A DNA stretch of 21,415 nt, from positions 1 through 21,415 of IMG/VR virus record IMGVR_UViG_2737471822_000004; one strand, written 5' to 3'. The DNA comes from a virus. Taxonomy: Duplodnaviria > Heunggongvirae > Uroviricota > Caudoviricetes. The notes beneath the pieces were generated by a model. It ran no database searches, had not been told where the DNA came from, and worked only from the letters and a program-made list of their open reading frames with translations. The translations under genes were made by a program, and so were the position numbers. Below, in pieces: positions 2,337-15,765 of the stretch (positions are counted from its first letter, which is position 1; each line of letters begins with the position of its first letter).

Positions 2337-2884
2337 TCCTGTATATCGTTAATGTCATTCAGGCGTTGCTGAAAATGCAGATGTTGTGCCGGGGTGTAAG
2401 AGTCCTGGCAATCACGAATCATCCCGGGGTCAGGTATCAAACCGGATTCATCCAGGATCTCACGATAATCCCCGGCAATTTCAGGCGGTGTTATTGCCAG
2501 CTGGCGAACCAGAGCACTGCGTAATATACGGGACGCAACGTCAACCCCTCCGCGTCCCTTCAGGAACGGAGCCAGTGCAGATGTCAGGGCTGCCCCATTC
2601 GCCTGCATAAAATTGCTGAGAGCTGCTTCTGTGCAGGCCTCCATCAGTAAATGCTGCGAGTAAATGCATTCGCGCGCAGCACAGTTAATTTGCCATTTCA
2701 GCACATCCAGACGTTCCCGCAGTAATTCGAGCTGTCGGGCATAATCTGCTGGTTTTTCTGTGGCAGCAAGGAGAGATGCTATCTGTTGTTCAACGGCTTT
2801 TCGGCTCTCACTATGTCCGGCCCACAGAATACGGGCATTCCGAAAACTGGTAAGTGCCTGGTCAGGCGTGCCTCGGGCCGTCAT
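2333..2884 (-). CDS. psu: Psu-like polarity suppression / capsid decoration protein (183 aa)
   Basis: Size, all-helical composition and recalled P4 Psu motifs (LKWQIN.AA, FMQ..G.AL..ALAP, YTPAQ). Sits inside the late operon, coupled to sid and delta by 4-nt overlaps. Confidence 0.7.
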   Translation of the reverse strand: MTARGTPDQALTSFRNARILWAGHSESRKAVEQQIASLLAATEKPADYARQLELLRERLDVLKWQINCAARECIYSQHLLMEACTEAALSNFMQANGAALTSALAPFLKGRGGVDVASRILRSALVRQLAITPPEIAGDYREILDESGLIPDPGMIRDCQDSYTPAQHLHFQQRLNDINDIQE

Positions 2885-3624
2885 ACTGCTTTCTCCTTCT
2901 CAGCAAGTTCCTGACGAACCTTAATTTTATGCATAGCTGCCGGAGAGAGTTGATTACTGAAATCCAGACGCGCCGCATAATCCGGGGCAATTCCCGCCAG
3001 TTTAAACACCGGGTCCTGTTCAGGCATCGCATCGTTAGCCAGAGCCGGTCTGGTGATATGTTTATGAATAAAGTCTTTCAGCACTGTGTCCGGGTCATTA
3101 ACTGAATTCACCACACCCACAACGGCACTGGCTTCCCGGCCCATTGTGGATTTAAGCAGGCTCAGCGTCTGAATAAGCGCTTTTCCATGCGACTGCATAA
3201 AATCTTCCCAGATTTGTTTTGCACGAATATCCACAAGAATATTATGCGCGTGGATATACTTTCCGGCTAATTCTGCAGCTTTCTGCGGCAAAAGTGCATT
3301 TTCGCTTTCCTGAGCCGCCAGCAGCTCATCAAAATCCTCAAGCGTTTCTCGTCCCAGCGCAATTTCCGTGCGCAGTTTTTTCATTTCCTTTGAGACCACG
3401 CCCTGACTTTCACGAAACAGCGTGCGCCACTCCTCATTCAGTGTGTTCGTCGTGGCTTCCATTTCAGCGCGACGCTGGCGGATTGTCGCAATATTATCCG
3501 CTGCCGCTTTCTGCTGACGACGTGCTTCAAGCCATGCGTTTCTGGCTGTGTTCATGGTTTCCAGTGCCCGCTGCGTTACAGCCGGAAAAGTGGAAAGGTT
3601 GTTATTCACTGCGGTGTTGTTCAT
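2881..3624 (-). CDS. sid: Sid-like external scaffold / capsid size determination protein (247 aa)
   Basis: First gene of the late operon, immediately downstream of tandem TGT-N12-ACA dyads. Size close to P4 Sid, helical Ala/Glu-rich sequence. AGGAG 6 nt upstream of ATG. Confidence 0.65.
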   Translation of the reverse strand: MNNTAVNNNLSTFPAVTQRALETMNTARNAWLEARRQQKAAADNIATIRQRRAEMEATTNTLNEEWRTLFRESQGVVSKEMKKLRTEIALGRETLEDFDELLAAQESENALLPQKAAELAGKYIHAHNILVDIRAKQIWEDFMQSHGKALIQTLSLLKSTMGREASAVVGVVNSVNDPDTVLKDFIHKHITRPALANDAMPEQDPVFKLAGIAPDYAARLDFSNQLSPAAMHKIKVRQELAEKEKAV

Positions 3625-3658
3625 GACTTCTCCTGTCGGGTTGGTTCGTTACGTCAAT

Positions 3659-3714
3659 TGTGTCGTGGCTGACACAAGCACACTATCGGTGATCAGTGTG
3701 TGGTGGCTGGCACA
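3659..3714 (-). promoter_or_regulatory. Late promoter region with two TGT-N12-ACA dyads (Ogr/Delta-type activator binding sites)
   Basis: TGTgtcgtggctgacACA at 3659-3676 and TGTgtggtggctggcACA at 3697-3714, centres 38 bp apart, about 45 and 80 nt upstream of the sid ATG. Confidence 0.6.
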
Positions 3715-3802
3715 ACGGGCGCTTGCGGTTATTCAGACGTGGCTATGAAAGCCAGCCAGATAAAAATGCCCTCTGTTTCAGTCTGCTTTATGTCCCTGAT
3801 GC

Positions 3803-3991
3803 GGTGGAACAGGTGAAACATGTGTTACTGCTTTGTTTTATAAAGTATTTATATACACTGCACCGGTGGAACATCGCGGGTAACAAGGTGGAACAGCGGA
3901 TTGGCTGGCGTTACATCTGTTCCACCTCACTATTTCAGAAGGTGAAACAGGTTCAGCCCTTGTAAAATACGGTTGTTCCACCTGTTTCACC
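3803..3991. repeat. Iteron cluster: 8 copies of 9-mer GGTG(G/A)AACA in both orientations, candidate alpha-binding origin/crr
   Basis: Copies at 3803, 3812, 3866, 3887, 3941 (forward) and 3919, 3974, 3983 (inverted, TGTT(C/T)CACC). Outer pairs form an 18-bp inverted repeat. Located between the alpha stop and the sid promoter. Confidence 0.7.
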
Positions 3992-4025
3992 TGTTACCCT
4001 TAATAAATAAGACTCACGCAAAGCC

Positions 4026-6698
4026 TTAACCCGGCACCTCGCTGTTGAAGACATAGAGCCTGCGGGGATTCATCTCTGGCGGGCGAATGGTTGTCTGGAG
4101 TTTGCCATCAGTGGAGGGCAGCAGGTATCCACGATCTGCGCACAGACGCGCCACCTTGCGCGGGTCAAATCCCCTGCAGATTTCTTTCCAGCCGGACGGC
4201 ATGACATAGAACGTAGTGACAGCTTCCGTGCCCTGCGCGGTACTGCCTTTCTCCACCCTTCGCCAGCCCACCATATTGCCGGGGCGGTTGCGCTCGTCAT
4301 ACCAGTCTGCAAAGCGGCTGTACTGATTCGCGGTAAAGAAACTGCGAACCTGCTCCAGTGCGGCGATATCTTCCTGATTGGCGGTGTGCCCGCGATCTTT
4401 CAGCCATGCGTTCAGGCAGACGCGGGTTGCCCGCAGTGCTTCACCCTCAGGCCAGCCGGTGATACCCAGACGGGTTGCCAGTTCACCTGCCATCGCCACC
4501 AGTGCAAAGCGGTTCACAGCCCGGCCCACTTGATTGCCTGCATCTTTCGGAGTCAGGGCGGCAGCATATTCCTTCATCAGCGATTTTGCCTGTGCCGTTA
4601 GTCCGTTAAGATCAGCGGTCAGTGCTTTCAGCCACTCCCGGAACGGCGAACCGTAGTAGCAGGACGTGGCCCATTCAAGATGCTCTGCCAGAGCCTTGCC
4701 GCTGTCGAAGCCGTGCAGCTCCTCAAAAACGCCAAACTTCCCGGAATCGCTGGGGATCTGGATCATCCTGACTTCCATCCCGGCAAAAGTACGCTCACCG
4801 GCCTTTGCCGCATGTTCGGTCAGAGACAACTCGCCAGTTGAAAAGAACAACAGGCGCCACTGCTTACGGGTACGCAGCTCACCGTCCGTACCGGCACGGC
4901 CCTTGCCTTGACCGTTTGCCAGCATGTAGGCGATATTGCCTGCCTCGCGTCCGTCAACTTCCCGGATCTCATCAAGCATCATGGCGGCATCGTTGCGGCG
5001 GCTGGCGCATCCCTCCAGCGCGTTGCCGGTGGCCCGCCATGTCTGCCAGTAGTCAGGCCCGCCGCAGACGGAGGTTGCTGCTTTCATGGTGGTGGTCTTA
5101 CCGTCTGTCGATTCCCCTTTGAGGTGGTAGCCGCCGCCGTCCATACCAACCAGCCGTAACAGTGGTGCAGCAAAGGCCAGGCTGACAGCAAATGCCACGC
5201 GGGAGTTGCCGGTACAGTAGCGGGATACATGCTCCCGCCATTCCTCTGTTGTGCCCGACACGCGGAAATCACGCCCCTGCACGGAAGTGGTCTGGAGAAT
5301 GACACCCTCTGCACCTTCACCGCTGACCTCATCCTGCAGGACGTAAACCTGACCATGCCAGCCAGTACGACTGACGCAGGTCACGCGGCGTTCCGGTTTA
5401 CACAGTGAGATATATTCCATCAGGCGTGCGCGTGCCTCACCGGTGGTGCTGATATAAGACAGCCCGTTAACCAGCAGTACCCGGCGCAGTTCCTCACCAC
5501 TGCCGCTCAGCATTTCCATCGGCATCGCCCAGCGGCGACACTCACCCCACGTATCTTCCCATTCCAGCAGTCGTCCGAAGTTACCGCCATCGGCATCGCA
5601 GGTGATTGCCGTCACGCGCAGCGGGCTGCATATTTTGACGTTCTGGATCTCCGTCTCACCGTTGCGCTGTACCTGCTTTTCATACCAGAGATATTCCTGG
5701 GTAAGACGGAACCCGTGCGGCAGTTGCGTGCGGCTTTCCCCGCACAGTACCAGACCGTTGCGAAAGGCTTCACGGGCACGGGTAATACCGTGCTCCCGAT
5801 GAAAGTCATTCCAGTCAGCCTTAATCTCTCCTGGTGGCAGCGTCATCCAGCCGCCAACAGCTTTTGCCGCCCGTTCAGCAAAGGCTCTGCCGGGATTCTC
5901 ACCCCCGTCCTGAAAATCGTTATCACCGGCGATGATAATTTTTACCTCAGGCCAGCGTGCCCGCAGCGACTGCGCCACATTGGGCAGGTTGCCCGCAGAT
6001 ATGGCAGCCACTACGCATCCGGCAGTGAGCTGGCTTACCGTCAGCGCCGTAGCGTAACCTTCGGTAATCACCACCTGTATCGGTGGTTCAGACGGTAACG
6101 GGCTGAGCGACACAAACGCGCCTTTCATCGTGCTGCCGGGCAGTATGCTTTTTTCACCCGTCGGGGCGATAAGCTGTGCACCGGTCACGGCTCCGGTGTT
6201 GGTCGTGAGTGGTAACAGCAGGGAACCGGCAGGAAAATCCTTACCGCTGATATGCTGTACGCTTCCGGTCAGAGAGGCCGGGTATCCGGCGAACCCTTTT
6301 CCTGTCAGATAGGCGCTTTCTCCCGTGTGGCTCTCTTTCATCAGCGCCGCCACGGTAAGACCCATGTCGCGTTTAGGGGCTTTTTGTCTGGCAGGCTTAA
6401 CAGGCAGTTCCTGCATATCCGGCACATTAAGCACCTGCGCCACCTCCTGCGCAGCCTTTCTGACGCTGTAACCGGTTACGAGCTTAACCAGATCCAGACC
6501 GTCACCATTGCCACACTGGCTGCAGATCCACGTCCCGCGCCCGTCAAGGTCATCAAGGCGAAAACGATCCTTGCCCCCACATTTCGGGCAGGGACCGTGC
6601 CTGCCGTTTTCAGGTACATCAATACGCAGCATCTGCAGAATAACGGGCCATTTCCCCCGTGCGGCGGCTGAAACCTGCGTAACCGTCTGTATTGTCAT
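4026..6698 (-). CDS. alpha: Alpha-type primase-helicase (890 aa)
   Basis: N-terminal zinc-binding CPKCGG...CSQCG, TOPRIM-like EGYATAL / AGDND acidic motifs, C-terminal Walker A GESTDGKTT. Start overlaps the upstream ORF stop (ATGA). Confidence 0.9.
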   Translation of the reverse strand: MTIQTVTQVSAAARGKWPVILQMLRIDVPENGRHGPCPKCGGKDRFRLDDLDGRGTWICSQCGNGDGLDLVKLVTGYSVRKAAQEVAQVLNVPDMQELPVKPARQKAPKRDMGLTVAALMKESHTGESAYLTGKGFAGYPASLTGSVQHISGKDFPAGSLLLPLTTNTGAVTGAQLIAPTGEKSILPGSTMKGAFVSLSPLPSEPPIQVVITEGYATALTVSQLTAGCVVAAISAGNLPNVAQSLRARWPEVKIIIAGDNDFQDGGENPGRAFAERAAKAVGGWMTLPPGEIKADWNDFHREHGITRAREAFRNGLVLCGESRTQLPHGFRLTQEYLWYEKQVQRNGETEIQNVKICSPLRVTAITCDADGGNFGRLLEWEDTWGECRRWAMPMEMLSGSGEELRRVLLVNGLSYISTTGEARARLMEYISLCKPERRVTCVSRTGWHGQVYVLQDEVSGEGAEGVILQTTSVQGRDFRVSGTTEEWREHVSRYCTGNSRVAFAVSLAFAAPLLRLVGMDGGGYHLKGESTDGKTTTMKAATSVCGGPDYWQTWRATGNALEGCASRRNDAAMMLDEIREVDGREAGNIAYMLANGQGKGRAGTDGELRTRKQWRLLFFSTGELSLTEHAAKAGERTFAGMEVRMIQIPSDSGKFGVFEELHGFDSGKALAEHLEWATSCYYGSPFREWLKALTADLNGLTAQAKSLMKEYAAALTPKDAGNQVGRAVNRFALVAMAGELATRLGITGWPEGEALRATRVCLNAWLKDRGHTANQEDIAALEQVRSFFTANQYSRFADWYDERNRPGNMVGWRRVEKGSTAQGTEAVTTFYVMPSGWKEICRGFDPRKVARLCADRGYLLPSTDGKLQTTIRPPEMNPRRLYVFNSEVPG

Positions 6699-7078
6699 AC
6701 TTCCCCCTCATACAACGTCACACCGGTACTGCAGAAGTCATCAAAGGCCGCCGGAAGCGTGCGGTACATCTCCGCCATCACTTCACAGCCGCGCGCGGTC
6801 AGTACCGGCGGCGCGGTCAGCAGTGACGGCTCCAGCATGTCAGTCAGCAGTGCCAGCGCGGCAGCGGCGCCCTGCACTTCGCCGTACTCGTTAATCAGTA
6901 CGCACTCGATATGCAGCGCAATGGCCATTTCAATACGCTCCACTGTCAGGCTGTGCGGACCATACTGATCACTGCCAGTTTCGTTCAGCATTTTCTGCCG
7001 CCATGCTGAAGCAATAGCCCGCCGGTAAAGCGCGGTGGTCATTTCTACCGGGAAAATGGAAACCTGCGGCTGGTTCAT
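6695..7078 (-). CDS. Hypothetical protein (127 aa), immediately upstream of alpha
   Basis: ORF with ATGA stop/start overlaps on both sides. Position is analogous to the small genes preceding alpha in P4 (orf151/epsilon region). No motif recognised. Confidence 0.55.
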   Translation of the reverse strand: MNQPQVSIFPVEMTTALYRRAIASAWRQKMLNETGSDQYGPHSLTVERIEMAIALHIECVLINEYGEVQGAAAALALLTDMLEPSLLTAPPVLTARGCEVMAEMYRTLPAAFDDFCSTGVTLYEGEV

Positions 7079-7359
7079 CTGGCACCTCCTTCAATCAGTG
7101 CGCAGCTGTGTGCAATATCCGTCAAATCTGCCAGCAGGTACTCCATCAGCGCGGCGACACCAGGCGCACAGCCTGCGTCCAGTGCTCCGGCCTGAGACGG
7201 GTATTCAGAAAAGAGAAGCTGGAGCATGTCGCAGGCATTTCTTGCGCGGGTCAGCTTTCCGAAACTGTCCTCTGACAACCCATAGGCAAAAGCACCGGTA
7301 TTGTGTTTTTCAGGCAAAGTGTGGCCCTGAGCACCGTTGAGCCCGTTTGAAATATTCAT
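7075..7359 (-). CDS. Hypothetical protein (94 aa)
   Basis: GGAG 10 nt upstream of ATG. Stop overlaps the next start. Epsilon-like by position and size only. Confidence 0.5.
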   Translation of the reverse strand: MNISNGLNGAQGHTLPEKHNTGAFAYGLSEDSFGKLTRARNACDMLQLLFSEYPSQAGALDAGCAPGVAALMEYLLADLTDIAHSCALIEGGAR

Positions 7360-7390
7360 CGTGAATTACTCCGTTTTCAGCGGTATTTTG

Positions 7391-7750
7391 TCAGAGAAAC
7401 TTTGAATAGTGACCGTCGTCAGGCTCAGCAGAACGCCGTATGGTACGCTCCCGCCAGCGGATAAATAGCACAGACGGATGCAGTGTCAGCGGGCCGGAAC
7501 CACTACTGCCTGCAGGAGCTGGTGCAGGCTTAAAGAGCGGTACATCAAACAGGCGCGTATACCGCTGTTCAAACCATGCCAGAGGGCAGGAAGAAAGCTG
7601 GTTGTCGCTGTCATGACGTATCAGCACTTCACAGCTGAATTCAGGATTAACCAGCGCCACAGAGGGCGAGGCTTCTATTAATCGGATAATCGTGACCGTC
7701 CAGCCACGTTCATGCTGCCAGCGTTCGCCGGGGTGCGGATAATTACGCAT
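7391..7750 (-). CDS. Hypothetical protein (119 aa from the RBS-supported ATG; the ORF extends to 7780)
   Basis: GGAGGTG 5 nt upstream of the ATG at 7750. Overlaps the end of the upstream small ORF by 8 nt. Confidence 0.5.
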   Translation of the reverse strand: MRNYPHPGERWQHERGWTVTIIRLIEASPSVALVNPEFSCEVLIRHDSDNQLSSCPLAWFEQRYTRLFDVPLFKPAPAPAGSSGSGPLTLHPSVLFIRWRERTIRRSAEPDDGHYSKFL

Positions 7751-7919
7751 GTTCACCTCCGCAGGGAATGCGCCCGGCAAAGCTCAGTACATAGTCCGGG
7801 GCAAGTCTGCGCCGCGCTGATCGTTCGTTATCTGCGGTGATCCTTAACATCACAGGACGGGCATTGCGTTGACTGCGGTTGATCGCCGCAAATAACCAGG
7901 TACACTTCTGTTTAGCCAT
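7743..7919 (-). CDS. Hypothetical small protein (58 aa), first gene of the replication operon
   Basis: GAGGT 8 nt upstream of the ATG at 7919. The longer 76-aa ORF lacks an RBS at its first ATG. Confidence 0.4.
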   Translation of the reverse strand: MAKQKCTWLFAAINRSQRNARPVMLRITADNERSARRRLAPDYVLSFAGRIPCGGEHA

Positions 7920-8003
7920 CTTCGTTACCTCATATAACGTGCTGGTCAGACGCCTCGGTGCTGCTGCAAACACTCCGGGGCGTTGCTATTTTGTTTTTCT
8001 GTG

Positions 8004-8047
8004 TGTAATGTGTCATTACACATAAATACATTACAATGGGTGTAATT
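8004..8047. promoter_or_regulatory. Divergent promoter/operator region with GTAATG-type palindromes
   Basis: TGTAATG-tgt-CATTACA perfect palindrome at 8004-8020, further CATTACA (8029-8035) and TGTAATT (8041-8047) half-sites overlapping the start of the plus-strand regulator gene. Confidence 0.45.
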
Positions 8048-8230
8048 GACGTGTCAACACACAAAAATGAAAGACGTGGGAATCCGCCATTCCAGTTCCG
8101 ACTTGACCCTGAACTGCGTGAACTGATGGAACAAGCACAACAGCAGGATGGCGATGAATCGCTAGCGGCTTGGATCAAGCGCATTCTACGCAAAGAGTTA
8201 CAAAGCCGAGGTTTAGAACCAAAGAATTGA
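8036..8230 (+). CDS. Small ribbon-helix-helix-like transcriptional regulator (64 aa), the only plus-strand gene in the satellite
   Basis: PFQFRLDPELRELMEQ... fits the beta-strand then helix pattern of Arc/CopG/ParD-type RHH proteins. Divergent from the replication operon. No clear SD at the first ATG; the GTG at 8051 is an alternative start. Confidence 0.5.
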   Translation: MGVIDVSTHKNERRGNPPFQFRLDPELRELMEQAQQQDGDESLAAWIKRILRKELQSRGLEPKN

Positions 8231-8240
8231 TTAATACGTT

Positions 8241-8263
8241 GGGGAGGCTTTTTTCTCCCCAGC
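8241..8263. terminator. Hairpin between the converging RHH gene and alpA (possible bidirectional terminator)
   Basis: GGGGAG / CTCCCC stem with a T-rich loop. No strong U-tract on either side, so function is uncertain. Confidence 0.3.
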
Positions 8264-8279
8264 TTTGTTAATATTGTCA

Positions 8280-8495
8280 TTACACTACTTCCTCCAATCC
8301 TGCTGATTGAGCTTTAACCCACTGCCTAATTTCTTGTGCATCGTAAACAGATACCCGTTTTGAAATGCGTATAGATTTGGGAAATTCAGGATTGTTCTTT
8401 TCCCAGCGCCAGAGAGTAACCGTACTTATTTGCAAAAAGTCAGCAGTAGCTCGTGGGCGGGCATGTCCAGTGATAGGATAAGTTTTTAATGTCAT
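8280..8495 (-). CDS. alpA: AlpA-family HTH regulator (71 aa)
   Basis: FLQISTVTLWRWEKNNPEFPKSIRISKRVSVYDAQEIRQWV matches the AlpA/Xis-type winged-helix pattern. Typical position between the integrase and the primase operon. Confidence 0.8.
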   Translation of the reverse strand: MTLKTYPITGHARPRATADFLQISTVTLWRWEKNNPEFPKSIRISKRVSVYDAQEIRQWVKAQSAGLEEVV

Positions 8496-8503
8496 GAAAT
8501 TAC

Positions 8504-8531
8504 CTGCCGTATTATGTAATGAACACGGCAG
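8504..8531 (-). promoter_or_regulatory. Stem-loop in the alpA 5' leader
   Basis: 7-bp stem CTGCCGT / ACGGCAG with a 14-nt loop that contains a GTAATG motif, ending 8 nt upstream of the alpA ATG. Confidence 0.3.
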
Positions 8532-8773
8532 ATACTATGGGGATATCAAAATGCTGTGAAGGTAGTGTAATCAACTCTACCTGTAGATTGTTTCAGTCTA
8601 CCCCTTTTGTTTTAATCCCGCATGATTAACCGCTAATCGTAATTTTCTTAAGATTTCTTGTTCATTAGTGATAAATATTGGAGGTAGCTCTCCTAAATGT
8701 TTAATTATGGCGTTAGTCCACTTTTCAGGACTTATCTCTTTTCTTTCACCACGACATTCGCTTGGGTATTTTG

Positions 8774-9481
8774 CTAATATATATATATGGCTGCATTTAA
8801 TAACCCCTCCCTATTTTTTGCATGATGCTCAGCAGTGTTATTTAATCGCTTGGGGATTTTAGGTTCAGATGAAATTCTTTTCGTAAGTAAACTTGGCATA
8901 GGAATTCCAGTTTTTACTGATTTCCATATTAACTCTAAATCTCTTCGCATGATAAGAAGATCTTCAAATGGAATCTCAATGACCTTATTTCCTTCATATG
9001 AGGCCGTTGCCATCAAAACATTATCTCGTATTTTTACCGGTTTAAGCCTGAATTCATAATCTGGATCTATAGCTAATCCATTTTTTATGTCACTTATCAT
9101 ATCATCGGCGTACCAAATACCACAGGCAAATCCTATAATTTGAAGCCCATTTTCAAAATGTTCAAAGGAATCATCTTTAAGGTCATACCATATTGTTGAA
9201 AATTCCATCTCTAGTGATTGATTAGTTAATACGGGATGAATTAAGTCAATTTCCATTTTCTGATTTTTATTGAGGAAATTAACATTAAATCTAACTGCAA
9301 GTCCATCCGCCTTGAATGCGATATTAAAAGCGCCTATTTCGTATAGATGTAATAAATCATCAATCTCGCATTCTAATAGTCTTGAAGCGCGTTCAAATGA
9401 ACAATATTCTAATGGTGGTATTTTTTTGTCAATCCATAGATTTCCTAAGAATATAGTTTCATTCTCTGTTGAATGCTGCAT
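8774..9481 (-). CDS. Hypothetical protein (235 aa), AT-rich cargo gene between integrase and alpA
   Basis: Long ORF with GAGG 7 nt upstream of ATG, 30 nt downstream of the integrase stop. Lower GC than neighbours. No motif recognised. Confidence 0.6.
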   Translation of the reverse strand: MQHSTENETIFLGNLWIDKKIPPLEYCSFERASRLLECEIDDLLHLYEIGAFNIAFKADGLAVRFNVNFLNKNQKMEIDLIHPVLTNQSLEMEFSTIWYDLKDDSFEHFENGLQIIGFACGIWYADDMISDIKNGLAIDPDYEFRLKPVKIRDNVLMATASYEGNKVIEIPFEDLLIMRRDLELIWKSVKTGIPMPSLLTKRISSEPKIPKRLNNTAEHHAKNREGLLNAAIYIY

Positions 9482-9511
9482 TATGACCTCTGTTTTAAAT
9501 TATAAGAGTAT

Positions 9512-10846
9512 TTAATTGATAATGTTAATACCTGATAAGTCATAAGGAGCATGGAATTCGTCCTTATTTAGTTCCAGATAATTAGACCACCATTGCATCA
9601 TTCTGCGGCGTTCCTGCATGTGCTGCGCAAGATGCACATATGCTGCCCGCACTTCGTTTCTTTCTTGGTGACTCATCTGCCGTTCAACTGCATCGCGTGA
9701 CCAGAGTCCTGATTCGGTCAGTGCAGAGCAGGCCATCGCCCTGAACCCATGCAAGCAAACATCAGTTTGAGTGTCGTAACCCATCGTTCGCAGTGCTTTA
9801 TTAACTGTGTTTTCGCTCATCGGTTTATATGGGTTGCTGTCACCGGGAAAAACCAGCAGATATTCACCACTGATTTTCCTTATATCCTCCAGTACCCCGA
9901 TAGCCTGACTAGATAGCGGGACATAATGAGCAGCCCCCATCTTTGCACCCCGATCTGAGAATTTAACCCCTGCGATCTCTTCACGTTGTCCTGGTATCGT
10001 CCATAGCCCATTTTCAATGTCGATCTCCTCCCATCTGGCATGTCGTAGTTCGCTGGATCGCACAAAAGTGTGCAGGGAAAAGAGAACTGCTAGGCGAGTC
10101 AATGGTCTTCCCGTGTAACTTCTCGTTTTCGCTAACAGTTCAGGTAAACGTTCGAGAGGTAGTGCGGGGCGATGTCGTACTTTGGGGGCCGTAATTGCAC
10201 CTTTTAGATCGTGGGCAGGGTTGTAATCGACAATTCCACGTTGCACGGCATAACGGAAGATGCTCGTCATAGTGGTTTTTACACGGCTCGTTGTGGCACC
10301 AATTCCTTTCTCAGTCATCTCAACCAGCATCGGCATCAAGTCACGGGTTTTGAGCGTATCGATAGGCTTTGAACCGATGGCAGGAAAGAGGTGGTTTTCC
10401 ATTTCTCGGAGAATTTTTTTACGGGTGATCTCTTTCCACTCAGGATGCCCCATCGTTCCACTATGCCACTCTCTGGCAACACTCTCGAACGTGGGGGAAA
10501 TTGGGTCTTCCTTTTTGGGTTTCTTTGCTTCGCGAGGATCACGACCATCGGCTAGTAGTTGCCTGGCTTCATCACGCCGTTTCCGCGCTGTTGCAAGTGA
10601 GACATCTGGGTAGACCCCTAATGCTAATGTCACTTGTTTTCCATCAAAACGATAATTCATACGCCAGTATTTTCCACCAGTCTTTCGTACCAGTAGATAC
10701 AAACTCCCTCCATCGGTAAGTTTGTAATCATTGGTCTTCGGCTTGGCGTTTTCTATCTGTTTGGGGGAAAGCACATTAATGGCCATATCTGTACTCATTT
10801 TGGTAAATTGATGGTATCTGCATATCGAACTGGGGAATACCATCAC
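9512..10846 (-). CDS. Tyrosine recombinase, P4-family integrase (int1); probable true start at 10786 or 10798
   Basis: N-terminal arm-binding domain (KLTDGGSLYLLVRKTGGKYWRMNYRF...VTLALGVYPDVSLATARKRRDEAR) and C-terminal catalytic region (HGFRA...RAAYVH...RRRMMQWW). The canonical N-terminus begins at MAINVLSPK. Confidence 0.9.
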   Translation of the reverse strand: MMVFPSSICRYHQFTKMSTDMAINVLSPKQIENAKPKTNDYKLTDGGSLYLLVRKTGGKYWRMNYRFDGKQVTLALGVYPDVSLATARKRRDEARQLLADGRDPREAKKPKKEDPISPTFESVAREWHSGTMGHPEWKEITRKKILREMENHLFPAIGSKPIDTLKTRDLMPMLVEMTEKGIGATTSRVKTTMTSIFRYAVQRGIVDYNPAHDLKGAITAPKVRHRPALPLERLPELLAKTRSYTGRPLTRLAVLFSLHTFVRSSELRHARWEEIDIENGLWTIPGQREEIAGVKFSDRGAKMGAAHYVPLSSQAIGVLEDIRKISGEYLLVFPGDSNPYKPMSENTVNKALRTMGYDTQTDVCLHGFRAMACSALTESGLWSRDAVERQMSHQERNEVRAAYVHLAQHMQERRRMMQWWSNYLELNKDEFHAPYDLSGINIIN

Positions 10847-11057
10847 TTATACCATCACGAGGTTGTAATGTCATGAAATTAACTGAAATGAAAATCAGGC
10901 CGATTCGGTGATAACTTACTGTTTTTTTAAGTGGTTATGTAATGAAGTGAAATGTAGAGAAAGGTCTTTAAAGTGTCCCTGCAGACATCTACTTGAGGCG
11001 GCAGGGGGTTGATTAGAATGGTGTTTTTTAGATTTGAGAAATATTTTACCCGCTATT
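10847..11057. other. Inter-element junction: candidate att site region, duplicated alpA start segment, and direct repeats
   Basis: Contains a second copy of the 16-mer TAATGTCATGAAATTA that overlaps the alpA start codon (10866-10881 versus 8487-8502), a tRNA 3'-end-like GTGTCCCTGCAG (10963-10974), and a TATTTTACCC direct repeat at 11042-11063. Confidence 0.35.
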
Positions 11058-11258
11058 TTACCCATTCGCGCGGCTTAAGAGCTTATTTTTGAATTCACAA
11101 TGGTCACGATATAACCATCTTGCTCGTCCGTGGATAACTTTGGCTTTAGGCAGGTCGCCGGACTTAATCCGGTCATAGATGAAGGTTTTACCAAAGCCAG
11201 TATCAGCCATGATGAATTTCAAATCAACCAGTGAATCAGGTTGTAGTTCGTGTTGCAT
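11058..11258 (-). CDS. torI: TorI-like excisionase / recombination directionality factor (66 aa, AlpA/Xis-type winged helix)
   Basis: 66-aa protein MQHELQPDSLVDLKFIMADTGFGKTFIYDRIKSGDLPKAKVIHGRARW... with an HTH_17-like pattern. I recall this as the E. coli KplE1 TorI sequence. GGAGA upstream of ATG. Lies at the prophage end opposite the IntS-like integrase. Confidence 0.65.
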   Translation of the reverse strand: MQHELQPDSLVDLKFIMADTGFGKTFIYDRIKSGDLPKAKVIHGRARWLYRDHCEFKNKLLSRANG

Positions 11259-11300
11259 GAGTGCTATCTCCGAATAGGGAATCGAACCTGCAAATCAGGC

Positions 11301-11323
11301 AATAAAAAACCGCATTGATGCGG
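11301..11323 (-). terminator. Rho-independent terminator at the end of the early operon
   Basis: Minus-strand hairpin CCGCA-ucaa-UGCGG followed by UUUUUUAUU, between the 114-aa gene and the torI-like gene. Confidence 0.6.
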
Positions 11324-11382
11324 CAATGGTAGGTCTGGATATCTTGAGAAATGAACGGGCCTCATCGAGTGTGAGGCTGTGG

Positions 11383-11727
11383 TTAGTCCTTGCGTAACTC
11401 GCTAATTCTTCTGTAAGTCTCTGGTGCTTTGTTTCCGTGTATCTTCATTTCAGACTTCAACAGAGCAACGAGAGAATCCCATTCGTTGAGGATGCCTTTG
11501 AATGCCGGAACGCGCTTTGCAACCTTGTCGAATGAATCCCTGATTTCTGGAATCTGCTCGACAAGCGCAACGCATCGCCGGAAGTCGGCTACGTCATGTG
11601 GAGCGCCGAAGTGATGACCATAGATATTCTTTTTCAGTCCACATGCGATTGAGGCAAGAGTTGCGCTACTGATGCCAACATCGCCAGTCGATTGCCATTT
11701 CAAAACCTTCATAGCCAAATCTGACAT
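11383..11727 (-). CDS. Hypothetical prophage protein (114 aa)
   Basis: ORF co-oriented with the early operon. No motif recognised. Confidence 0.5.
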   Translation of the reverse strand: MSDLAMKVLKWQSTGDVGISSATLASIACGLKKNIYGHHFGAPHDVADFRRCVALVEQIPEIRDSFDKVAKRVPAFKGILNEWDSLVALLKSEMKIHGNKAPETYRRISELRKD

Positions 11728-11799
11728 TTCTTGTCTCCATAAAACAAAACTCGCCGTAGCGAGTTCAGATAAAAGAAATCCCCGCGAGTGCGAGGATTG

Positions 11800-12084
11800 T
11801 TATTCATTGCCGATATTCACCTTTATCGCGAACACCTTTACCGGTTTATCGCCGAAGTGCGGATGTGTGATTGTCTTGATTTCATATCCGTCATACGGGA
11901 CGTCAATTCTGCGGCTGGAATCGTCGCGCTTCGGATATCCCTTTGTGATAATCAGGCGGTCATGCTTACGGTTAACGAGGCGCTTTTTCCAGTAGTCATT
12001 ACACAAGCGATACTCTTCCGTTTTCTCCCCGCGAATCATGGCATCGAAGTATTCACCTTTGACGGCAAGTTGCAGGTTAGCCAT
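11800..12084 (-). CDS. ASCH/DUF3850-like small protein (94 aa from the ATG at 12084)
   Basis: MANLQLAVKGEYFDAMIRGEKTEEYR resembles the N-terminal pattern of ASCH/DUF3850 proteins. GGAGGTG 7 nt upstream. TAATG stop/start overlap with the upstream gene. Confidence 0.55.
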   Translation of the reverse strand: MANLQLAVKGEYFDAMIRGEKTEEYRLCNDYWKKRLVNRKHDRLIITKGYPKRDDSSRRIDVPYDGYEIKTITHPHFGDKPVKVFAIKVNIGNE

Positions 12085-12344
12085 TACCGCACCTCCAGTT
12101 TCCATACCGCCTGACCAATCCGGCTGGCATAGGTATCTTTGGATACTGCTCCGTCTTTAGCCAGCTCCATAAGAATTTTGCGCAAATCTGCCGAACGCCA
12201 TTCTTCATCAGGAAATTCCTTCTCCATTGCCAACCGCAGATTCCAGGTTGCTATCGTGAATGGATATTCCCCGCCGAGAGCTTTCTCTTGCAGGGCAGAA
12301 CGGGAACGCATCACCTGCAAAACCTTCTCTTTTACATCCATCAT
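12084..12344 (-). CDS. Hypothetical prophage protein (86 aa)
   Basis: ORF translationally coupled to both neighbours (4-nt overlap with the DUF551 gene, 1-nt overlap with the ASCH-like gene). Confidence 0.5.
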   Translation of the reverse strand: MMDVKEKVLQVMRSRSALQEKALGGEYPFTIATWNLRLAMEKEFPDEEWRSADLRKILMELAKDGAVSKDTYASRIGQAVWKLEVR

Positions 12345-13342
12345 TTTGCCTCCTGCGGCGGTTCTGGTAGTGGCATCCAGTGTGTGACATTGCTAATCAG
12401 ACCATATTCATTAGTTTGAGGATGGTTGCCGTTATCGTCTCCGTATTTAAGACTCTCCATAAAACCATAATGCTTATTCCCATTAACGCTCACAAAGCCG
12501 TAATAAGCAGGTATAACGCCGATCTCACACGTAACCAGCAAAGGAAAACCAGTTCTCCAGTTTAGTTCACCGATTTCAGGCATTCGATCACTACAGCTTA
12601 TCCAACTATCCGGAGTTACCGGAGAGTTGCCCGATAGCGCGTTCTGCAGTCGCTCCAGCTTCACGTATTCCTGAACCCTGTTTCCGTCGCATGCCTGAAG
12701 CCATTGCGCAGCCTTTTGCGCATCAGTGTGAAAGGCACAAGTGCGACCGTCATCAAATTGCATTTCGTAGAGGTCAGCAACTTGTTCAAACTGCGTGTGT
12801 TGTGACTTGTAAGTTTGGCTTACAGGTTCGGCTTCCAGTTCTGCTATGCGCTTCTCTGTGGATTCCAGCGCTGCAACCAATTCGTCTACAGTTCCGGCAG
12901 CTTGCAGTGCGTAATCGGTAATAGCCATCTCATGATCAATTTCAGTACCGTTCTCATTCGTTGAGGTGATAGCAAAATAATCAGAGTCGATTTCGTTATC
13001 AGCTAAGTGGCGTAGCGTATCGGCAACAAGCTGGCCGTTTTCGATTAGCAGCCTCCCAACCGTAAGCGCAATATCCTCGTTCTCCTGGTCGCGGCGTTTT
13101 ATGTATTGCTGGTTTCTTTCCCGTTCATCCAGCAGCGCCAGCACGGTTTCTGGTCCGGTCAGAAATTTGAAGGCGTTGAGCGCATCAATATCCACACCGT
13201 AATCTTTAAGTTCCTGTTCACTTAACAAATCATCATCAGCTGGCAACATTAACAGGCGTTCCATTGCTGGAATTGCACGTTCCGCCGCCTCACGCAGTGC
13301 CTGGTAATTAATTTCGCTCACTGGTTGCCTCCTTTGCGCCAC
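12341..13342 (-). CDS. DUF551-domain phage protein (333 aa), Ea22-like early-region protein
   Basis: C-terminal [10 protein letters not shown]...LLVTCE...YYGF...[12 protein letters not shown] matches the DUF551 pattern common in lambdoid early-left operons. Acidic N-terminal region. Confidence 0.65.
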
Positions 13343-13501
13343 ATCGCATTCAGATATTTGTTTTGATTCACTGATGGAAAAGAATTTCTCTTAAGCAATT
13401 CCTCTCTCGATGGCATTGGCTTTACGCGTTGGCGAATAATCATTTCCGCCGGAAGAATTCCGGGATTGTATGCAAGTCCTCTCATGGTAAATTCCTCTTT
13501 G

Positions 13502-13816
13502 TTAATTTATTCGTATGCCTGTTCTCTCTTCATCGAGTTTTTTTAGCTTGTATCGCATAGCTCTTACTGAATAAATTGAGCGGCAGGTTGCAATTGCTAT
13601 TTCTTCTGCGGAGAACTTACCGAAAAGTGATACTTCGGCTCTTGTCCATCGTCTTCCACGAAGTCGGCTAACAATGTCAGCGCCAATCCTTGTTGCTTTC
13701 GCCATTACTGCTTTTTCAGTCCTTTCCAGTTTTTCAGCGATAACTTCAACTGGCATTGTCGCCGCCACTTCGCGCAAGAAATCGACTTCCCATTTCTCCC
13801 ATGGAGTCTTTTTCAT
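13502..13816 (-). CDS. Hypothetical prophage protein (104 aa)
   Basis: ORF in operon context. Basic C-terminus. No firm family. Confidence 0.45.
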
Positions 13817-13827
13817 AGGCGATACCG

Positions 13828-14316
13828 TTATTTGATAAGAAGTGAAGGTTTCCCAACTTTGAGTTGAGCGCCGGGGATATTTATTCCTGCTTTTAGTTGG
13901 TGCTTGATTGCCAACTTGTCGGCTTTAATTGTCGTTTCGAACTCAACGTATTCAGGAGGAAGGGCGCTTGAGTCGATGATTTCTACAATTTCTGACGGTT
14001 TGCGGATTGTTACCTGGTGAATACCTGCTCGAATATTTTTCTTGCCAACCATTTCAAGCGATGACGCTATATATGATTTGATGCTGTCAATCTTATTTTG
14101 AATTACTGCGGCTCGCTCATTCAGTGACTTTGCCTCTTCCTTGAGGCGTTCAGCATAAGCAGATTCATTTTTAATGACGGAAAGAAGTTGCTCTATTTTA
14201 TCGGTAAATTCTCCTTCCATGCCTTCTATTGTGTCAGCAATCATCTCTGGTTCTAAATCTGAATCCATCAATTTTGCGTATTCATTGGCAATTTCATACA
14301 GTTTGCTCACTGGCAA
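13828..14316 (-). CDS. Sipho_Gp157-like protein (162 aa), frequent partner of RecT/Erf recombinases
   Basis: Coiled-coil N-terminus and C-terminal ...IKADKLAIKHQLKAGINIPGAQL... pattern. Start overlaps the 3' end of recT. Confidence 0.5.
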   Translation of the reverse strand: MPVSKLYEIANEYAKLMDSDLEPEMIADTIEGMEGEFTDKIEQLLSVIKNESAYAERLKEEAKSLNERAAVIQNKIDSIKSYIASSLEMVGKKNIRAGIHQVTIRKPSEIVEIIDSSALPPEYVEFETTIKADKLAIKHQLKAGINIPGAQLKVGKPSLLIK

Positions 14317-15205
14317 CCTCCAGTTTCGCTTTGCATTCTATGTAAATGGCTTGTACGTTCTGCTGTAATTTCATTCCAGATGTCAGGCGATATGCTTCTG
14401 CAAAATATCGCTTCAAATCATCCATGTTTTCTGCCTGAGCCATTTCATCGCAAAGAAGTTGTACTTTATCCATTATTTCCTGCTGGCGTTTCCGTTCATC
14501 TTCGCGGATATCTTCCTCTGATTTGTGCGGCATAACTGGTTCAGTCCACACACCTTCTTCTTCGTTTAGTACGTGAATAGCACTATCAAGACGTGATGCC
14601 TTAGGCCAATACTTGCTTGCACGCTTTACGACCGTCTTTCGCGCCATCTCATTCCAGTGATTTACCCATGGTCCTTTATCGCTGAATGCCGCCTTGCTTG
14701 TTTTCCTTACAGCCTCAATTTCAGCCAGACTCATCTCTTCCGTTAGATAATCACCTGCTGGCGTCTTAACTGTGCAGTAAACGCCAACGATATCACCGCG
14801 ATCACCGAAGGCGTTGTATTTATGGGTTGGTGCTTTATCAAGCCCGTTTGACTCATAGGTATCGTTAGCATGAACAAGTTTTGCCTGACCCCATGAGATA
14901 ACACCAGACTCCATTGCAATATGGAGCAACCCCATATAACTGATATCAAGGCACACCATGCCGTCGCGCGGAACCAGATAAGCCAGTTTGCTAGCCGGGT
15001 TTAAGGTGATGCCGATCGCCGCAACATTGATGATGGCGTTCTGTGCGCTGGTTGGATTTGCCAGTGCCGTTTTAGCCAGGTAATCGTTTTTCTGGAAATA
15101 CTGAATTGCAAACTGGCTTTCCTTAGCCCATGTCACCGTCTGTTCAGTCAATGCTCCGCAGAATAACTGCTCCTGCTGTTTAACGAATTCAACGATATTG
15201 CTCAT
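14294..15205 (-). CDS. recT: RecT-family single-strand annealing recombinase (303 aa)
   Basis: GPWVNHWNEMARKTVVKRASKYWP matches the conserved RecT motif (Rac RecT: GPWVTHWEEMAKKTAIRRLFKYLP). Family-level call. Confidence 0.8.
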   Translation of the reverse strand: MSNIVEFVKQQEQLFCGALTEQTVTWAKESQFAIQYFQKNDYLAKTALANPTSAQNAIINVAAIGITLNPASKLAYLVPRDGMVCLDISYMGLLHIAMESGVISWGQAKLVHANDTYESNGLDKAPTHKYNAFGDRGDIVGVYCTVKTPAGDYLTEEMSLAEIEAVRKTSKAAFSDKGPWVNHWNEMARKTVVKRASKYWPKASRLDSAIHVLNEEEGVWTEPVMPHKSEEDIREDERKRQQEIMDKVQLLCDEMAQAENMDDLKRYFAEAYRLTSGMKLQQNVQAIYIECKAKLEVASEQTV

Positions 15206-15513
15206 GCTGCTTCTCCAAAAATGTGTCTGCGCTTGAATATTGCGAAGGCATATTCAGCCTTAACTCTTTCGGTTATTGCATCCCAGAACCATTCAGCGGC
15301 TTTTTCCTGATAGTTACAGTCATCATCTTCCAGCCAGTCGATAGCGTCCTTAGTGTGTTCATCTGGTTTATATGAGCGAAGCATTTCGCTTATTGGGTCG
15401 CAACGTTTGCAGAGGCGATCAACTTCACTGTTGATTCGTTCGTAATCTTCATCAGTAAAACTTGCGATTATTTGCGATATTTCACGCTTATCATTCAGAG
15501 TCAGAATCATCAT
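15202..15513 (-). CDS. Hypothetical prophage protein (103 aa)
   Basis: ORF with 4-nt overlap to recT. Acidic. No motif recognised. Confidence 0.5.
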   Translation of the reverse strand: MMILTLNDKREISQIIASFTDEDYERINSEVDRLCKRCDPISEMLRSYKPDEHTKDAIDWLEDDDCNYQEKAAEWFWDAITERVKAEYAFAIFKRRHIFGEAA

Positions 15514-15598
15514 CTTTCTCCTGTTCTTTGTGCTGATTGAGCATTTTGTTCATCTGACGAATGAATTCTTCGTCTGACCAGTTATCCGTAAAACTCAT
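15491..15598 (-). CDS. Possible small ORF (35 aa, acidic C-terminus)
   Basis: Below the ORF-track cutoff. Its ATG overlaps the stop of the upstream 56-aa ORF (ATGA) and its 3' end overlaps the 103-aa start. Supported only by coupling geometry. Confidence 0.25.
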   Translation of the reverse strand: MSFTDNWSDEEFIRQMNKMLNQHKEQEKDDDSDSE

Positions 15599-15765
15599 GG
15601 ACGGCCTTGTTGTTTCAAAATATCCCAAAGCTTTTCGAGCAAACTTTTCATTCTTGGTTGTTTAAAGTCTGCTCCGGTTAAAATATTTTTTCGTGAATGC
15701 TGTACCGATAAAATCGGGTTGAAAGGGCGAACCGATGCCGCCCCTGCAATAGCGAACTGTTGCAT
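15595..15765 (-). CDS. Possible small protein (56 aa), leader gene of the early operon
   Basis: AAGGAG 6 nt upstream of the ATG at 15765. The longer 91-aa frame has no RBS at its first ATG. Confidence 0.3.
   Translation of the reverse strand: MQQFAIAGAASVRPFNPILSVQHSRKNILTGADFKQPRMKSLLEKLWDILKQQGRP

What the first reader, a model, noticed from the sequence alone, without database searches (positions are those of the whole stretch)
8774..9481. AT-rich orphan gene inserted between the integrase and alpA: a second cargo position
A 235-aa ORF with good translation signals lies in the int-alpA gap, has lower GC than either neighbour, and has no features I can assign. The int-proximal slot holds variable genes in related E. 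coli islands (for example yfjH in CP4-57, from recall). A single-gene abortive-infection or anti-phage effector is a reasonable hypothesis, but it is inference.
Basis: inference. Interest (0 to 1): 0.55.

Follow-up and report, generated by a model that had tools for sequence, protein, structure and literature searches.

The report
Frameshifted integrase-adjacent satellite gene, not cargo
The 235-codon ORF is a copy, broken by a 2-bp insertion, of a 293-residue gene of unknown function. Members of its family sit between the integrase and alpA genes in every related phage-satellite locus I examined, so it looks like part of the satellite's integration/excision switch rather than an inserted anti-phage cargo gene.

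Summary
The ORF is real: 8774..9481, minus strand, 235 aa, GC about 0.33. It is a truncated allele. The window has (AT)6 at 8777-8788, where every other copy examined has (AT)5: the 60 listed of 63 complete E. coli genomes, and 10 fetched loci. The intact gene is 293 aa and would end at 8598. The frameshift cuts the most conserved part of the protein.

The gene is not an orphan. A profile search finds 506 clusters, and 27 of 70 sampled members match PHROG 7144, which has no known function. No library assigns a function.

In 30 fetched loci found through the protein itself (Enterobacterales plus Tolumonas; some near-identical), the order is always int, this gene, alpA, on one strand. In some loci the gene overlaps the int stop codon by 4 nt or 1 nt.

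The predicted protein has three parts: a MerR/Xis-like winged helix (weak fold evidence), a fast-evolving beta domain, and a conserved C-terminal helical domain (dN/dS 0.05).

The closest known analogue is the iolg/icg gene class of Vibrio PICMI satellites, where iolg deletion abolished excision.

The best reading is a DNA-binding accessory of the int/alpA switch, inactivated in this window. Anti-phage defence is not supported but is not excluded.

The parts
8774..9481 (-). Truncated ORF (235 aa), the N-terminal 80% of the family protein. It keeps the winged-helix-like N-terminus and the beta-rich middle domain and ends 'AAIYIY*'.
   Evidence: matches the family HMM at E 1.7e-49
8777..8788 (-). 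(AT)6 dinucleotide run. The two extra bases relative to (AT)5 in all relatives shift the frame, so TAG at 8774-8776 is read.
8598..8776 (-). Out-of-frame remainder of the gene (AKYPSECRGERKEISPEKW...LKQKG*). It encodes the last 58 residues of the conserved C-terminal domain. The intact gene would span 8598..9481.
   Evidence: C-terminal dN/dS 0.05
9499..9528 (-). Sigma-70-like promoter match (TTAACA-18-TATAAT, 11 of 12) inside the 3' end of int, just upstream of the ORF.
   Evidence: This is a consensus match only; the region as a whole has no more such matches than shuffled sequence.
9512..10846 (-). P4-type tyrosine integrase. RefSeq annotates the start at the position equal to window 10786. 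Its stop lies 30 nt upstream of the ORF.
8280..8495 (-). alpA (Phage_AlpA wHTH regulator/excisionase family), the downstream neighbour in every locus.
8504..8531 (-). Stem-loop that buries the alpA Shine-Dalgarno sequence (CTGCCGTG...TACGGCAG). A -10-like TAGTAT (8532-8537) lies just 5' of it.
   Evidence: -17.8 kcal/mol, z -5.4; the same hairpin with different sequences is present in other alpA types
8561..8601 (-). Two small hairpins at and after the stop codon of the intact gene. They are weak here. Relatives carry cassette-specific hairpins at the same place.
   Evidence: (z -1.4)

Best explanation
The ORF is an inactivated allele of a backbone gene of the satellite's integration/regulation module (int, X, alpA). 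X is a roughly 290-350-aa protein with three parts:
- an N-terminal MerR/Xis-type winged helix;
- a fast-evolving beta-rich domain;
- a strongly conserved, basic C-terminal helical domain.

X is transcribed with or just after int in the quiescent prophage state. Inferred from position, domain make-up and the one genetically tested analogue (PICMI iolg): X binds DNA and works with Int and AlpA in the excision/induction switch. It could act as an architectural cofactor of the excisive complex or as a regulator at the int/alpA control regions. The variable N-terminal two-thirds would give element-specific recognition, and the conserved C-terminus a common output, probably contact with something more conserved than Int or AlpA.

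In this window a 2-bp slippage in an (AT)n run removes the last 58 residues of the conserved domain. If the sequence is correct, the protein is probably non-functional.

Shown: the frameshift, the family, the strict synteny, purifying selection, the variable/conserved split and the AT-richness. Inferred: DNA binding, co-expression with int, and the role in excision or regulation.
For: - Frameshift.
- Family size and lack of annotation: 20 close hits, all hypothetical proteins of Enterobacterales; 506 representative clusters at E<=1e-3 and 166 at E<=1e-10; PHROG 7144, unknown function, matched by 27 of 70 members.
- Synteny: int, X, alpA on one strand, with a primase 2-4 kb further on where the flank reaches it. 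This holds in all 30 fetched loci found through the protein (some near-identical), spanning E. coli, Salmonella, Pantoea, Kosakonia, Pectobacterium, Symbiopectobacterium, Tatumella, Intestinirhabdus, Buttiauxella and Tolumonas, next to integrases about 24% identical. In a Sodalis contig only X and alpA are seen.
- A remote member (hhalign probability 99.3%) occupies the same slot in a sister P4-like satellite.
- Overlap with the int stop codon: 4 nt in 8 loci and 1 nt in 3 loci. Elsewhere the gap is 7-113 nt.
- The slot is never empty in 45 alpA-anchored loci; 26 of them hold this family.
- The module int-X-alpA recombines as a unit. About 290 further E. coli genomes share the backbone up to about window 7960, then carry other int modules.
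- Purifying selection: dN/dS 0.17 overall, 0.21 for the N-terminal and middle parts, 0.05 for the C-terminus.
- The C-terminal 80 aa stay 50-96% identical while the rest falls to 2-49% between elements whose int genes are 85-90% identical.
- Analogue: PICMI iolg/icg genes lie between int and alpA and overlap int by 1, 4 or 13 nt (ATGA commonest). They fall into 13 families of unknown function. Deleting iolg abolished excision and transfer (PMC10803314).
Against: - No experiment exists on this family.
- The iolg deletion overlaps int and was complemented only with int plus iolg, so a cis or polar effect is not excluded in that paper.
- A pure architectural cofactor would not be expected to diverge to 2-49% identity between elements with about 90% identical Int and 57-97% identical AlpA. 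That pattern fits a specificity or sensor role better.
- Some satellites carry unrelated genes in the slot, so the function is replaceable or not universal.
Confidence: 0.5

Rival explanations
1. Stl-like master regulator or sensor. X is made in the quiescent state, binds near the alpA promoter through its wHTH and keeps alpA off. Its fast-evolving middle domain is the target of a helper-phage protein that lifts repression. This would fill the acknowledged gap of a repressor/inducer pair in Gram-negative satellites.
For: - The N-terminal two-thirds are hypervariable or mosaic between elements with near-identical int and alpA, as expected for an immunity or helper-specificity determinant.
- The position between int and the activator gene, co-directional with int, matches stl in SaPIs (PMC6092414).
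- There is a promoter-like site of its own.
- Cassette-specific palindromes lie between X and the alpA -35 region.
- The literature states that a global repressor in Gram-negative PICIs is unclear and that alpA expression depends on the helper.
Against: - The palindrome position relative to alpA is not fixed (58-98 nt).
- One variant keeps pairing only through a G-U wobble, which points to an RNA hairpin rather than an operator (L007 versus L074).
- The same P4-like, helper-exploiting backbone is combined with three different slot genes, so X tracks the int module and not the helper-interaction module.
- Loss of a true repressor should derepress the satellite, yet this strain carries the frameshift in an otherwise intact element. 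The truncated protein may, however, retain DNA binding.
Confidence: 0.2
2. One reading: a single-gene anti-phage or abortive-infection (or superinfection-exclusion) protein expressed from the prophage-state satellite, with a variable sensor part and a conserved effector part.
For: - AT-rich in every host (GC 0.32-0.42 against 0.45-0.53 for int).
- A fast-evolving N-terminal and middle region joined to a conserved C-terminus.
- A possible promoter of its own.
- Satellites are known carriers of defence genes (PMC9122126, PMC13586616, PMC10803314).
Against: - No PADLOC model matches the protein, and only one chance-level hit appears among 70 family members.
- No enzymatic or toxin-like domain is present. 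The conserved part is a roughly 75-aa helical, basic domain.
- Fixed position, fixed strand and stop/start overlap with int are unlike the turnover seen in defence hotspots.
- The described P4 hotspots lie elsewhere.
- The family is nearly absent from phage genomes: one weak tblastn hit in 50,697 records.
Confidence: 0.15
3. The frameshift is a sequencing or assembly artefact, and the window's strain really has the intact 293-aa gene.
For: - The difference is a 2-bp length change in a low-complexity (AT)n run.
- It is unique among more than 70 copies.
- The surrounding 11 kb is otherwise almost identical to strain PD4.
Against: Nothing in the sequence argues against it. Dinucleotide slippage is also a genuine mutational route. 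Other copies are occasionally disrupted, for example by an IS1 under the match in strain E41 (hit H7).
Confidence: 0.3

Closest known systems
iolg / icg genes (integrase-overlapping / integrase-contiguous genes) of Vibrio PICMI satellites (Nat Commun 2024, PMC10803314)
   Same: - Located between int and alpA on the same strand.
- Either overlaps the int stop (ATGA, or 1 nt) or follows it closely.
- Many mutually unrecognisable families, all of unknown function.
- The slot is rarely empty.
- Belongs to the int/alpA/primase minimal backbone. The Tolumonas island is similarly minimal.
   Different: - Different hosts (Enterobacterales and Aeromonadales) and different satellite types (P4-like with psu/delta, and PICI-like).
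- Homology to PICMI115 IOLG was not tested.
- No genetics exists for this family.
- The domain architecture (wHTH, beta domain, conserved C-terminal domain) is described here only, from a prediction.
SaPI/PICI Stl (Rpr) master repressors
   Same: - Lies between int and the activating or excision gene and is co-directional with int.
- N-terminal DNA-binding fold followed by a highly divergent remainder.
- Would be expressed in the quiescent state.
   Different: - No sequence or fold match to Stl.
- The genes here are all co-directional rather than divergent.
- Neither repression nor helper-protein binding has been shown.
MerR / Xis / AlpA-type winged-helix DNA-binding proteins
   Different: - No HMM match to HTH_17, MerR or Phage_AlpA.
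- The protein is four times larger than an excisionase and carries two further domains.
P4 / P4-like defence hotspot cargo (gop-beta-cII region; Rousset et al. 2022, PMC9122126)
   Same: AT-rich gene of unknown function in a P4-like satellite, next to int.
   Different: - The hotspot lies between int and psu across the att/cos side. In this window that is 1-1570, at the other end of the element.
- This gene is syntenic and conserved, not high-turnover.
YfjH of CP4-57 (E. coli K-12)
   Same: Occupies the intA-alpA interval and has a similar length (318 aa).
   Different: Opposite strand; no detectable relationship (hhalign probability 0.5%).

Membership tests
iolg/icg positional class (PICMI satellites) | Gene lies between int and alpA on the same strand as int | tested here: met
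   Window: int 9512-10846, ORF 8774-9481, alpA 8280-8495, all on the minus strand. The same order holds in all 30 protein-anchored loci.
iolg/icg positional class (PICMI satellites) | Start overlaps the int stop codon (1, 4 or 13 nt) or is contiguous with int | tested here: met
   The window type has a 30-nt gap (icg-like). Relatives overlap by 4 nt (L018, L026, L027, L029, L085, L087, L090, L091) or by 1 nt (L031-L033). Start codons were taken as the first in-frame start.
iolg/icg positional class (PICMI satellites) | Required for helper-induced excision | not testable with these tools
   Needs genetics. Shown only for PICMI115 iolg (PMC10803314).
iolg/icg positional class (PICMI satellites) | Sequence or fold homology to PICMI115 IOLG | not tested
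The class itself comprises 13 unrelated families.
Known anti-phage defence systems (PADLOC-DB v2) | Match to a defence-protein model | tested here: not met
   0 models for the 293-aa protein. One of 70 family members gave a chance-level hit at E 0.0068.
P4-like defence hotspot cargo | Located in the int-psu hotspot, with high gene turnover between close relatives | tested here: not met
   The gene is on the alpA side of int. It was identical in position in all 30 protein-anchored loci. The hotspot position follows PMC8628076 and PMC13586616.
MerR/Xis-type wHTH DNA-binding domain | Winged-helix fold recognisable by structure or profile | tested here: inconclusive
   [not shown]
Stl-like satellite master repressor | Represses the satellite's activator or early operon and is relieved by a helper-phage protein | not testable with these tools
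   Only positional and architectural resemblance is available. The divergent-promoter layout of stl/str is absent.
P4 core gene set (int, psu, delta, sid, alpA, epsilon/ash, alpha) | Homology to one of the seven core proteins | tested here: not met
   No Pfam or NCBIfam hit. PHROG 7144 has unknown function. The RefSeq product name is 'hypothetical protein'.
YfjH (CP4-57) | Sequence homology | tested here: not met
   hhalign probability 0.5%; opposite strand.

The most novel reading that the evidence does not exclude
The family could be the missing helper-sensing master regulator of Gram-negative satellites. On this reading it is a modular protein whose hypervariable wHTH and beta domain set immunity or helper specificity, and whose conserved C-terminal domain delivers a common output to the host transcription or recombination machinery. 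It would control whether alpA fires. This would be a functional counterpart of SaPI Stl built on an unrelated fold, shared by P4-like and PICI-like elements.
Probability: 0.15. Interest if true: 0.75.

Novelty: new variant of a known kind. Interest (0 to 1): 0.45.

Why it matters
How Gram-negative satellites (P4-like, PICI, PICMI) keep alpA silent and assemble the excision complex is an open question. The PICI paper says a global repressor is unclear, and the PICMI paper asks how AlpA, Int and IOLG interact.

This work shows three things:
- A single uncharacterised family (506 clusters) fills the int-alpA slot in most of the enterobacterial loci sampled here (26 of 45 alpA-anchored loci, in a sample biased toward similar alpA genes).
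- The family has a DNA-binding-like N-terminus.
- Its sequence splits sharply into a hypervariable part and a conserved part.

That gives a concrete candidate in genetically tractable E. coli, and natural alleles to test: the intact 293-aa form against the 235-aa truncation found here.

For annotation, the slot gene should be treated as part of the integration module. It should not be counted as defence cargo, and this copy should be flagged as a probable pseudogene.

Tried and rejected
- Family libraries. Pfam, NCBIfam and PADLOC on the 235-aa and 293-aa proteins gave nothing. Pfam and PADLOC on 70 family members gave only chance hits. PHROGs gave only the unknown-function family 7144.
- Solved structures by profile: best E 0.067, meaningless.
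- Homology with YfjH: rejected.
- Homology with the 212-216-aa slot proteins: rejected.
- Homology with the ~295-aa 'FAM2' slot family: only a weak N-terminal resemblance at the same position (hhalign P 0.004, probability 8%), not accepted.
- Phase variation at the (AT)n run: rejected, because none of more than 70 other copies varies.
- Known RNA families around the gene: none.
- Post-gene palindromes as operators for X: undecided. Spacing to alpA varies, and a G-U wobble variant favours an RNA hairpin. In the window these hairpins are not more stable than shuffled sequence (z -1.4).
- RNAalifold on a MAFFT alignment of alpA leaders failed because the 5' arms were misaligned. A trimmed alignment was used instead.
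- Literature search for the accession or the PHROG: no paper. SEN1998 of ROD21 turned out to be an AlpA-type RDF, not this gene.
- The profile of all 70 sequences was too diverse for the locus search.

Full report
**1. The observation.**

The window carries an ORF at 8774..9481 on the minus strand. It has 235 codons, an ATG start and AGAGG 5 nt upstream. It lies between a P4-type tyrosine integrase and alpA:
- The integrase is at 9512..10846, with Pfam Arm-DNA-bind_3, Phage_int_M and Phage_integrase domains.
- alpA is at 8280..8495 (Phage_AlpA, E 1.6e-7).

GC in 400-nt windows is 0.31-0.35 across the ORF. It reaches about 0.50 inside int and is 0.40-0.42 around alpA. That part of the finding stands.

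**2. The ORF is a frameshifted fragment.**

Directly after the stop codon another frame stays open for 58 more codons.
- A megablast of 8500-9520 found the segment in 66 of 5,426 complete E. coli genomes, always on the chromosome. The aligned stretch was 1,019 nt against 1,021 in the window.
- In strains OW1E2 and PD4 the gene is 882 nt and encodes 293 aa (WP_001164861.1, 'hypothetical protein').
- The alignment shows (AT)5 in OW1E2 and (AT)6 in the window, at 8777-8788. The extra AT puts TAG (8774-8776) in frame.
- A 161-nt query centred on the run matched 63 genomes. All 60 listed hits span 159 nt, and none of the 63 reaches 99% identity.
- All 10 fetched metagenome, genome and IMG/VR loci with these exact flanks have five AT units.
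- Over 10,984 nt the window differs from PD4 by two substitutions, this insertion and one indel at the att junction.

The truncation is therefore private and recent, or a sequencing error. I cannot tell which.

**3. The element.**

Window 1-10984 is a P4-like satellite integrated at tRNA-Arg (argW) next to yfdC. The att core is CCCTGCAGGAATCGAA.

All its genes are on the minus strand, in this order:
- int, X (this gene), alpA;
- an Icd-like gene, two small ORFs and a DUF5375 gene;
- the TOPRIM/DUF927 primase (4026-6698);
- two psu-family genes and an Ogr/Delta zinc-finger gene;
- two AT-rich ORFs at 1-1570.

The last position is the known P4 defence hotspot between int and psu (PMC9122126, PMC8628076, PMC13586616). 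Beyond 10984 a second integrative element follows in tandem. Its own integrase is at 20258-21415.

**4. The family.**

- No Pfam, NCBIfam or PADLOC model matches the 293-aa protein.
- The word-indexed search gave 20 relatives of 288-321 aa plus one 186-aa hit. The named ones are hypothetical proteins of Enterobacterales.
- An exhaustive profile search gave 506 representative clusters at E<=1e-3 and 166 at E<=1e-10.
- The named members are from Klebsiella, Salmonella, Brenneria, Serratia, Yersinia, Citrobacter, Enterobacter and Tolumonas, all annotated 'hypothetical'.
- 27 of 70 members match PHROG 7144, which has unknown function.
- tblastn against 50,697 phage records gave a single weak hit.

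This is a satellite or island family, not a phage family.

**5. Position.**

Every locus I could reach through the protein itself shows int, X, alpA on one strand. A primase lies 2-4 kb further on where the flank reaches it. This holds in all 30 protein-anchored loci:
- two E. coli window-type copies (OW1E2, PD4);
- an E. coli island next to yicC;
- Buttiauxella, Pantoea, Kosakonia, Symbiopectobacterium, Intestinirhabdus, Pectobacterium and Tatumella;
- a distant Salmonella member;
- a minimal Tolumonas island;
- 17 IMG/VR contigs.

Some of these loci are near-identical to each other. In a Sodalis contig only X and alpA are seen.

The integrases in these loci fall to about 24% identity. A sister P4-like satellite with the same backbone carries a member at about 14% identity in the same slot (hhalign probability 99.3%, E 1e-20). 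That member overlaps int by 4 nt.

In a sample anchored on alpA rather than on X, 45 loci showed an integrase upstream:
- 26 had this family in between;
- 19 had something else (a ~295-aa family, a 216-aa family, or larger inserts);
- none had int and alpA adjacent.

The sample is biased toward alpA types like those used for the pattern.

The distance from the int stop to the X start is -4 in eight loci, -1 in three, and 7-113 nt elsewhere. It is 30 nt in the window type.

About 290 further E. coli genomes share the satellite backbone up to about window 7960 and then switch to other int modules. So int-X-alpA moves as a unit.

**6. The protein.**

With a 70-sequence alignment AlphaFold gives mean pLDDT 82. 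The model has four regions:
- residues ~25-70: a beta-alpha-alpha-beta-hairpin unit;
- ~105-195: a beta-rich domain;
- ~200-214: a disordered linker;
- ~215-290: a helical domain (pLDDT 95-98).

The alignment shows that the C-terminal ~75 residues (AEHHAxNRE..AAIY.L.KYP.ECRG.RKEISPEKW...H..E.PP...TNE..IL..LR.A.N) are by far the most conserved part.
- Between elements whose int is 85-90% and alpA 57-97% identical, the C-terminal 80 aa are 50-96% identical. The rest is only 2-49% identical.
- Between the two major int groups (int and alpA about 24% identical), the C-terminus is still 50-59% identical. It is more conserved than either neighbour. This argues that its partner is something shared, such as a host factor, a nucleic acid or the protein itself, rather than the cognate Int or AlpA (inference).
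- dN/dS between the OW1E2 allele and a metagenome allele (dS 0.18) is 0.17 overall, 0.21 for the N-terminal and middle parts, and 0.05 for the C-terminus.
- The family is AT-rich in every host (GC 0.32-0.42 against 0.45-0.53 for int).

The window's frameshift falls after 'AAIYI', inside the conserved domain, and removes its last 58 residues.

**7. Comparison with what is known.**

The closest described thing is the iolg/icg class of Vibrio PICMI satellites (PMC10803314).
- These genes lie between int and alpA and overlap int by 1, 4 or 13 nt, with ATGA the most frequent overlap, or lie contiguous with it.
- They fall into 13 families of unknown function, and only 3 of 35 subfamilies lack such a gene.
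- In PICMI115, deleting iolg abolished helper-induced excision and transfer.
- The authors propose that int and iolg are constitutive, that alpA is phage-induced, and that the three proteins form the excision complex.

The enterobacterial family reproduces the positional hallmarks. Homology to IOLG could not be tested.

The PICI literature says that a global repressor in Gram-negative elements is unclear and that alpA expression depends on the helper (PMC6092414). That leaves room for an Stl-like role.

It is on the other strand and is unrelated.

**8. Mechanism.**

I commit to this reading: X is a DNA-binding accessory of the int/alpA switch, made with Int in the quiescent state (confidence 0.5). 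In this window it is inactivated.

Within that frame, a role as excision or integration cofactor is favoured by three things:
- the iolg genetics;
- the stop/start overlap with int;
- co-transfer with the int module.

The extreme divergence of the N-terminal two-thirds between elements with near-identical Int and AlpA fits a specificity or sensing role better. I therefore keep the Stl-like regulator as a serious rival (0.2).

Defence (0.15) has only generic support: AT-richness, a variable part joined to a conserved part, and satellite context. It has several points against it.

None of these can be settled without experiments. They are listed under next steps.

**9. Side observations.**

- A strong stem-loop (-17.8 kcal/mol, z -5.4) covers the alpA ribosome-binding site at 8504-8531.
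  - Other alpA types have different sequences forming the same hairpin at the same place. One base pair is seen as G-C, A-U and C-G.
  - A -10-like hexamer sits just 5' of the 5' arm.
  - Transcripts started at the alpA promoter would therefore lack that arm, while read-through from int-X would hide the Shine-Dalgarno sequence. This is inference.
- The 16-mer TAATTTCATGACATTA occurs exactly twice in the window: at the alpA start and upstream of int. The upstream copy opens a 32-codon ORF that ends 8 nt past the annotated int ATG.

Noticed in passing
window 8504-8537 (-); same place in L003, L007, L010-L015, L026, L030, L031, L070-L090: A conserved stem-loop buries the alpA Shine-Dalgarno sequence. 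In the window it is CTGCCGTG..TACGGCAG, 13 bp, -17.8 kcal/mol, z -5.4. Other alpA types use different sequences (CCCGTAAC/GTTACGGG, CCCATAAC/GTTATGGG, CCCCTAAC/GTTAGGGG, CCTGCCA/TGGCAGG). 90.7% of cells are paired, and one pair is seen as GC, AU and CG. A -10-like hexamer lies just 5' of the 5' arm. This suggests fold-back inhibition of alpA translation on read-through transcripts from int-X.
   Followed up: partly
window 8487-8502 (-) and 10866-10881 (-): An exact 16-nt repeat, TAATTTCATGACATTA (26 nt at 88% identity), covers the alpA start codon and a site upstream of int. None is expected by chance. The upstream copy starts a 32-codon ORF (10874..10776) with the same first three codons as alpA (MTL). 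Its stop lies 8 nt past the RefSeq-annotated int ATG (10786). This could be a shared translation-initiation or regulatory signal for alpA and int.
   Followed up: partly
window 10985-21415: A second integrative element lies in tandem at argW. It has an alpA/xis-like gene at 11058-11258 (-), DUF551-type and other prophage early genes, and its own integrase at 20258-21415 (-), cut by the window end. No tRNA gene is in the window. The att core CCCTGCAGGAATCGAA is reduced to CCCTGCAG at 10976-10983.
   Followed up: partly
window 1-10984: The gene order is int-X-alpA-...-primase-psu-like-psu-delta-cargo, all on one strand. This differs from the canonical P4 order of int-hotspot-psu-delta-sid, then alpA-epsilon-alpha (PMC8628076). 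The int-X-alpA block recombines as a unit, with a breakpoint near 7960.
   Followed up: partly
window 1-1570 (-): Two very AT-rich ORFs (GC about 0.29; 234 aa at 1-705 and 282 aa at 722-1570) sit at the canonical P4 defence hotspot. Sister satellites carry a retron St85 system or Drt3a at that position. Their function was not examined.
   Followed up: no
L079, L080, L083, L084 (~3475-4369); L017 8598-9236; L077, L088, L092 and others: The int-alpA slot also holds other families. One is a ~295-aa family with an N-terminal motif at the same position as this family's wHTH and a loosely similar C-terminal pattern (hhalign P 0.004, not significant). Another is a 212-216-aa family. Neither has a Pfam match.
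   Followed up: partly
window 8561-8601 (-) and the equivalent place in relatives: Each X cassette type is followed directly by its own hairpin or palindrome. Examples are GGTACAGT..ACTGTACC, GGGAGAGTA..TACTCTCCC, TGGTAATATTTTATACCA and GAGTTTTCAAAAACTC. In several loci the alpA -35 region follows immediately. It is unclear whether these are weak terminators, mRNA 3' ends or operators. A G-U wobble variant favours RNA.
   Followed up: partly
window 8036-8230 (+): A small ORF (64 aa) on the opposite strand, between alpA and the Icd-like gene, is annotated in RefSeq relatives as a YlcI/YnfO family protein. The module breakpoint near 7960 lies just beside it.
   Followed up: no
NZ_CP069707.1 (E. 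coli E41), one search hit H7: In one of the 66 genomes the match to 8500-9520 is split in two pieces with an IS1A element under it. The slot gene or its surroundings are therefore occasionally disrupted in other strains too.
   Followed up: no
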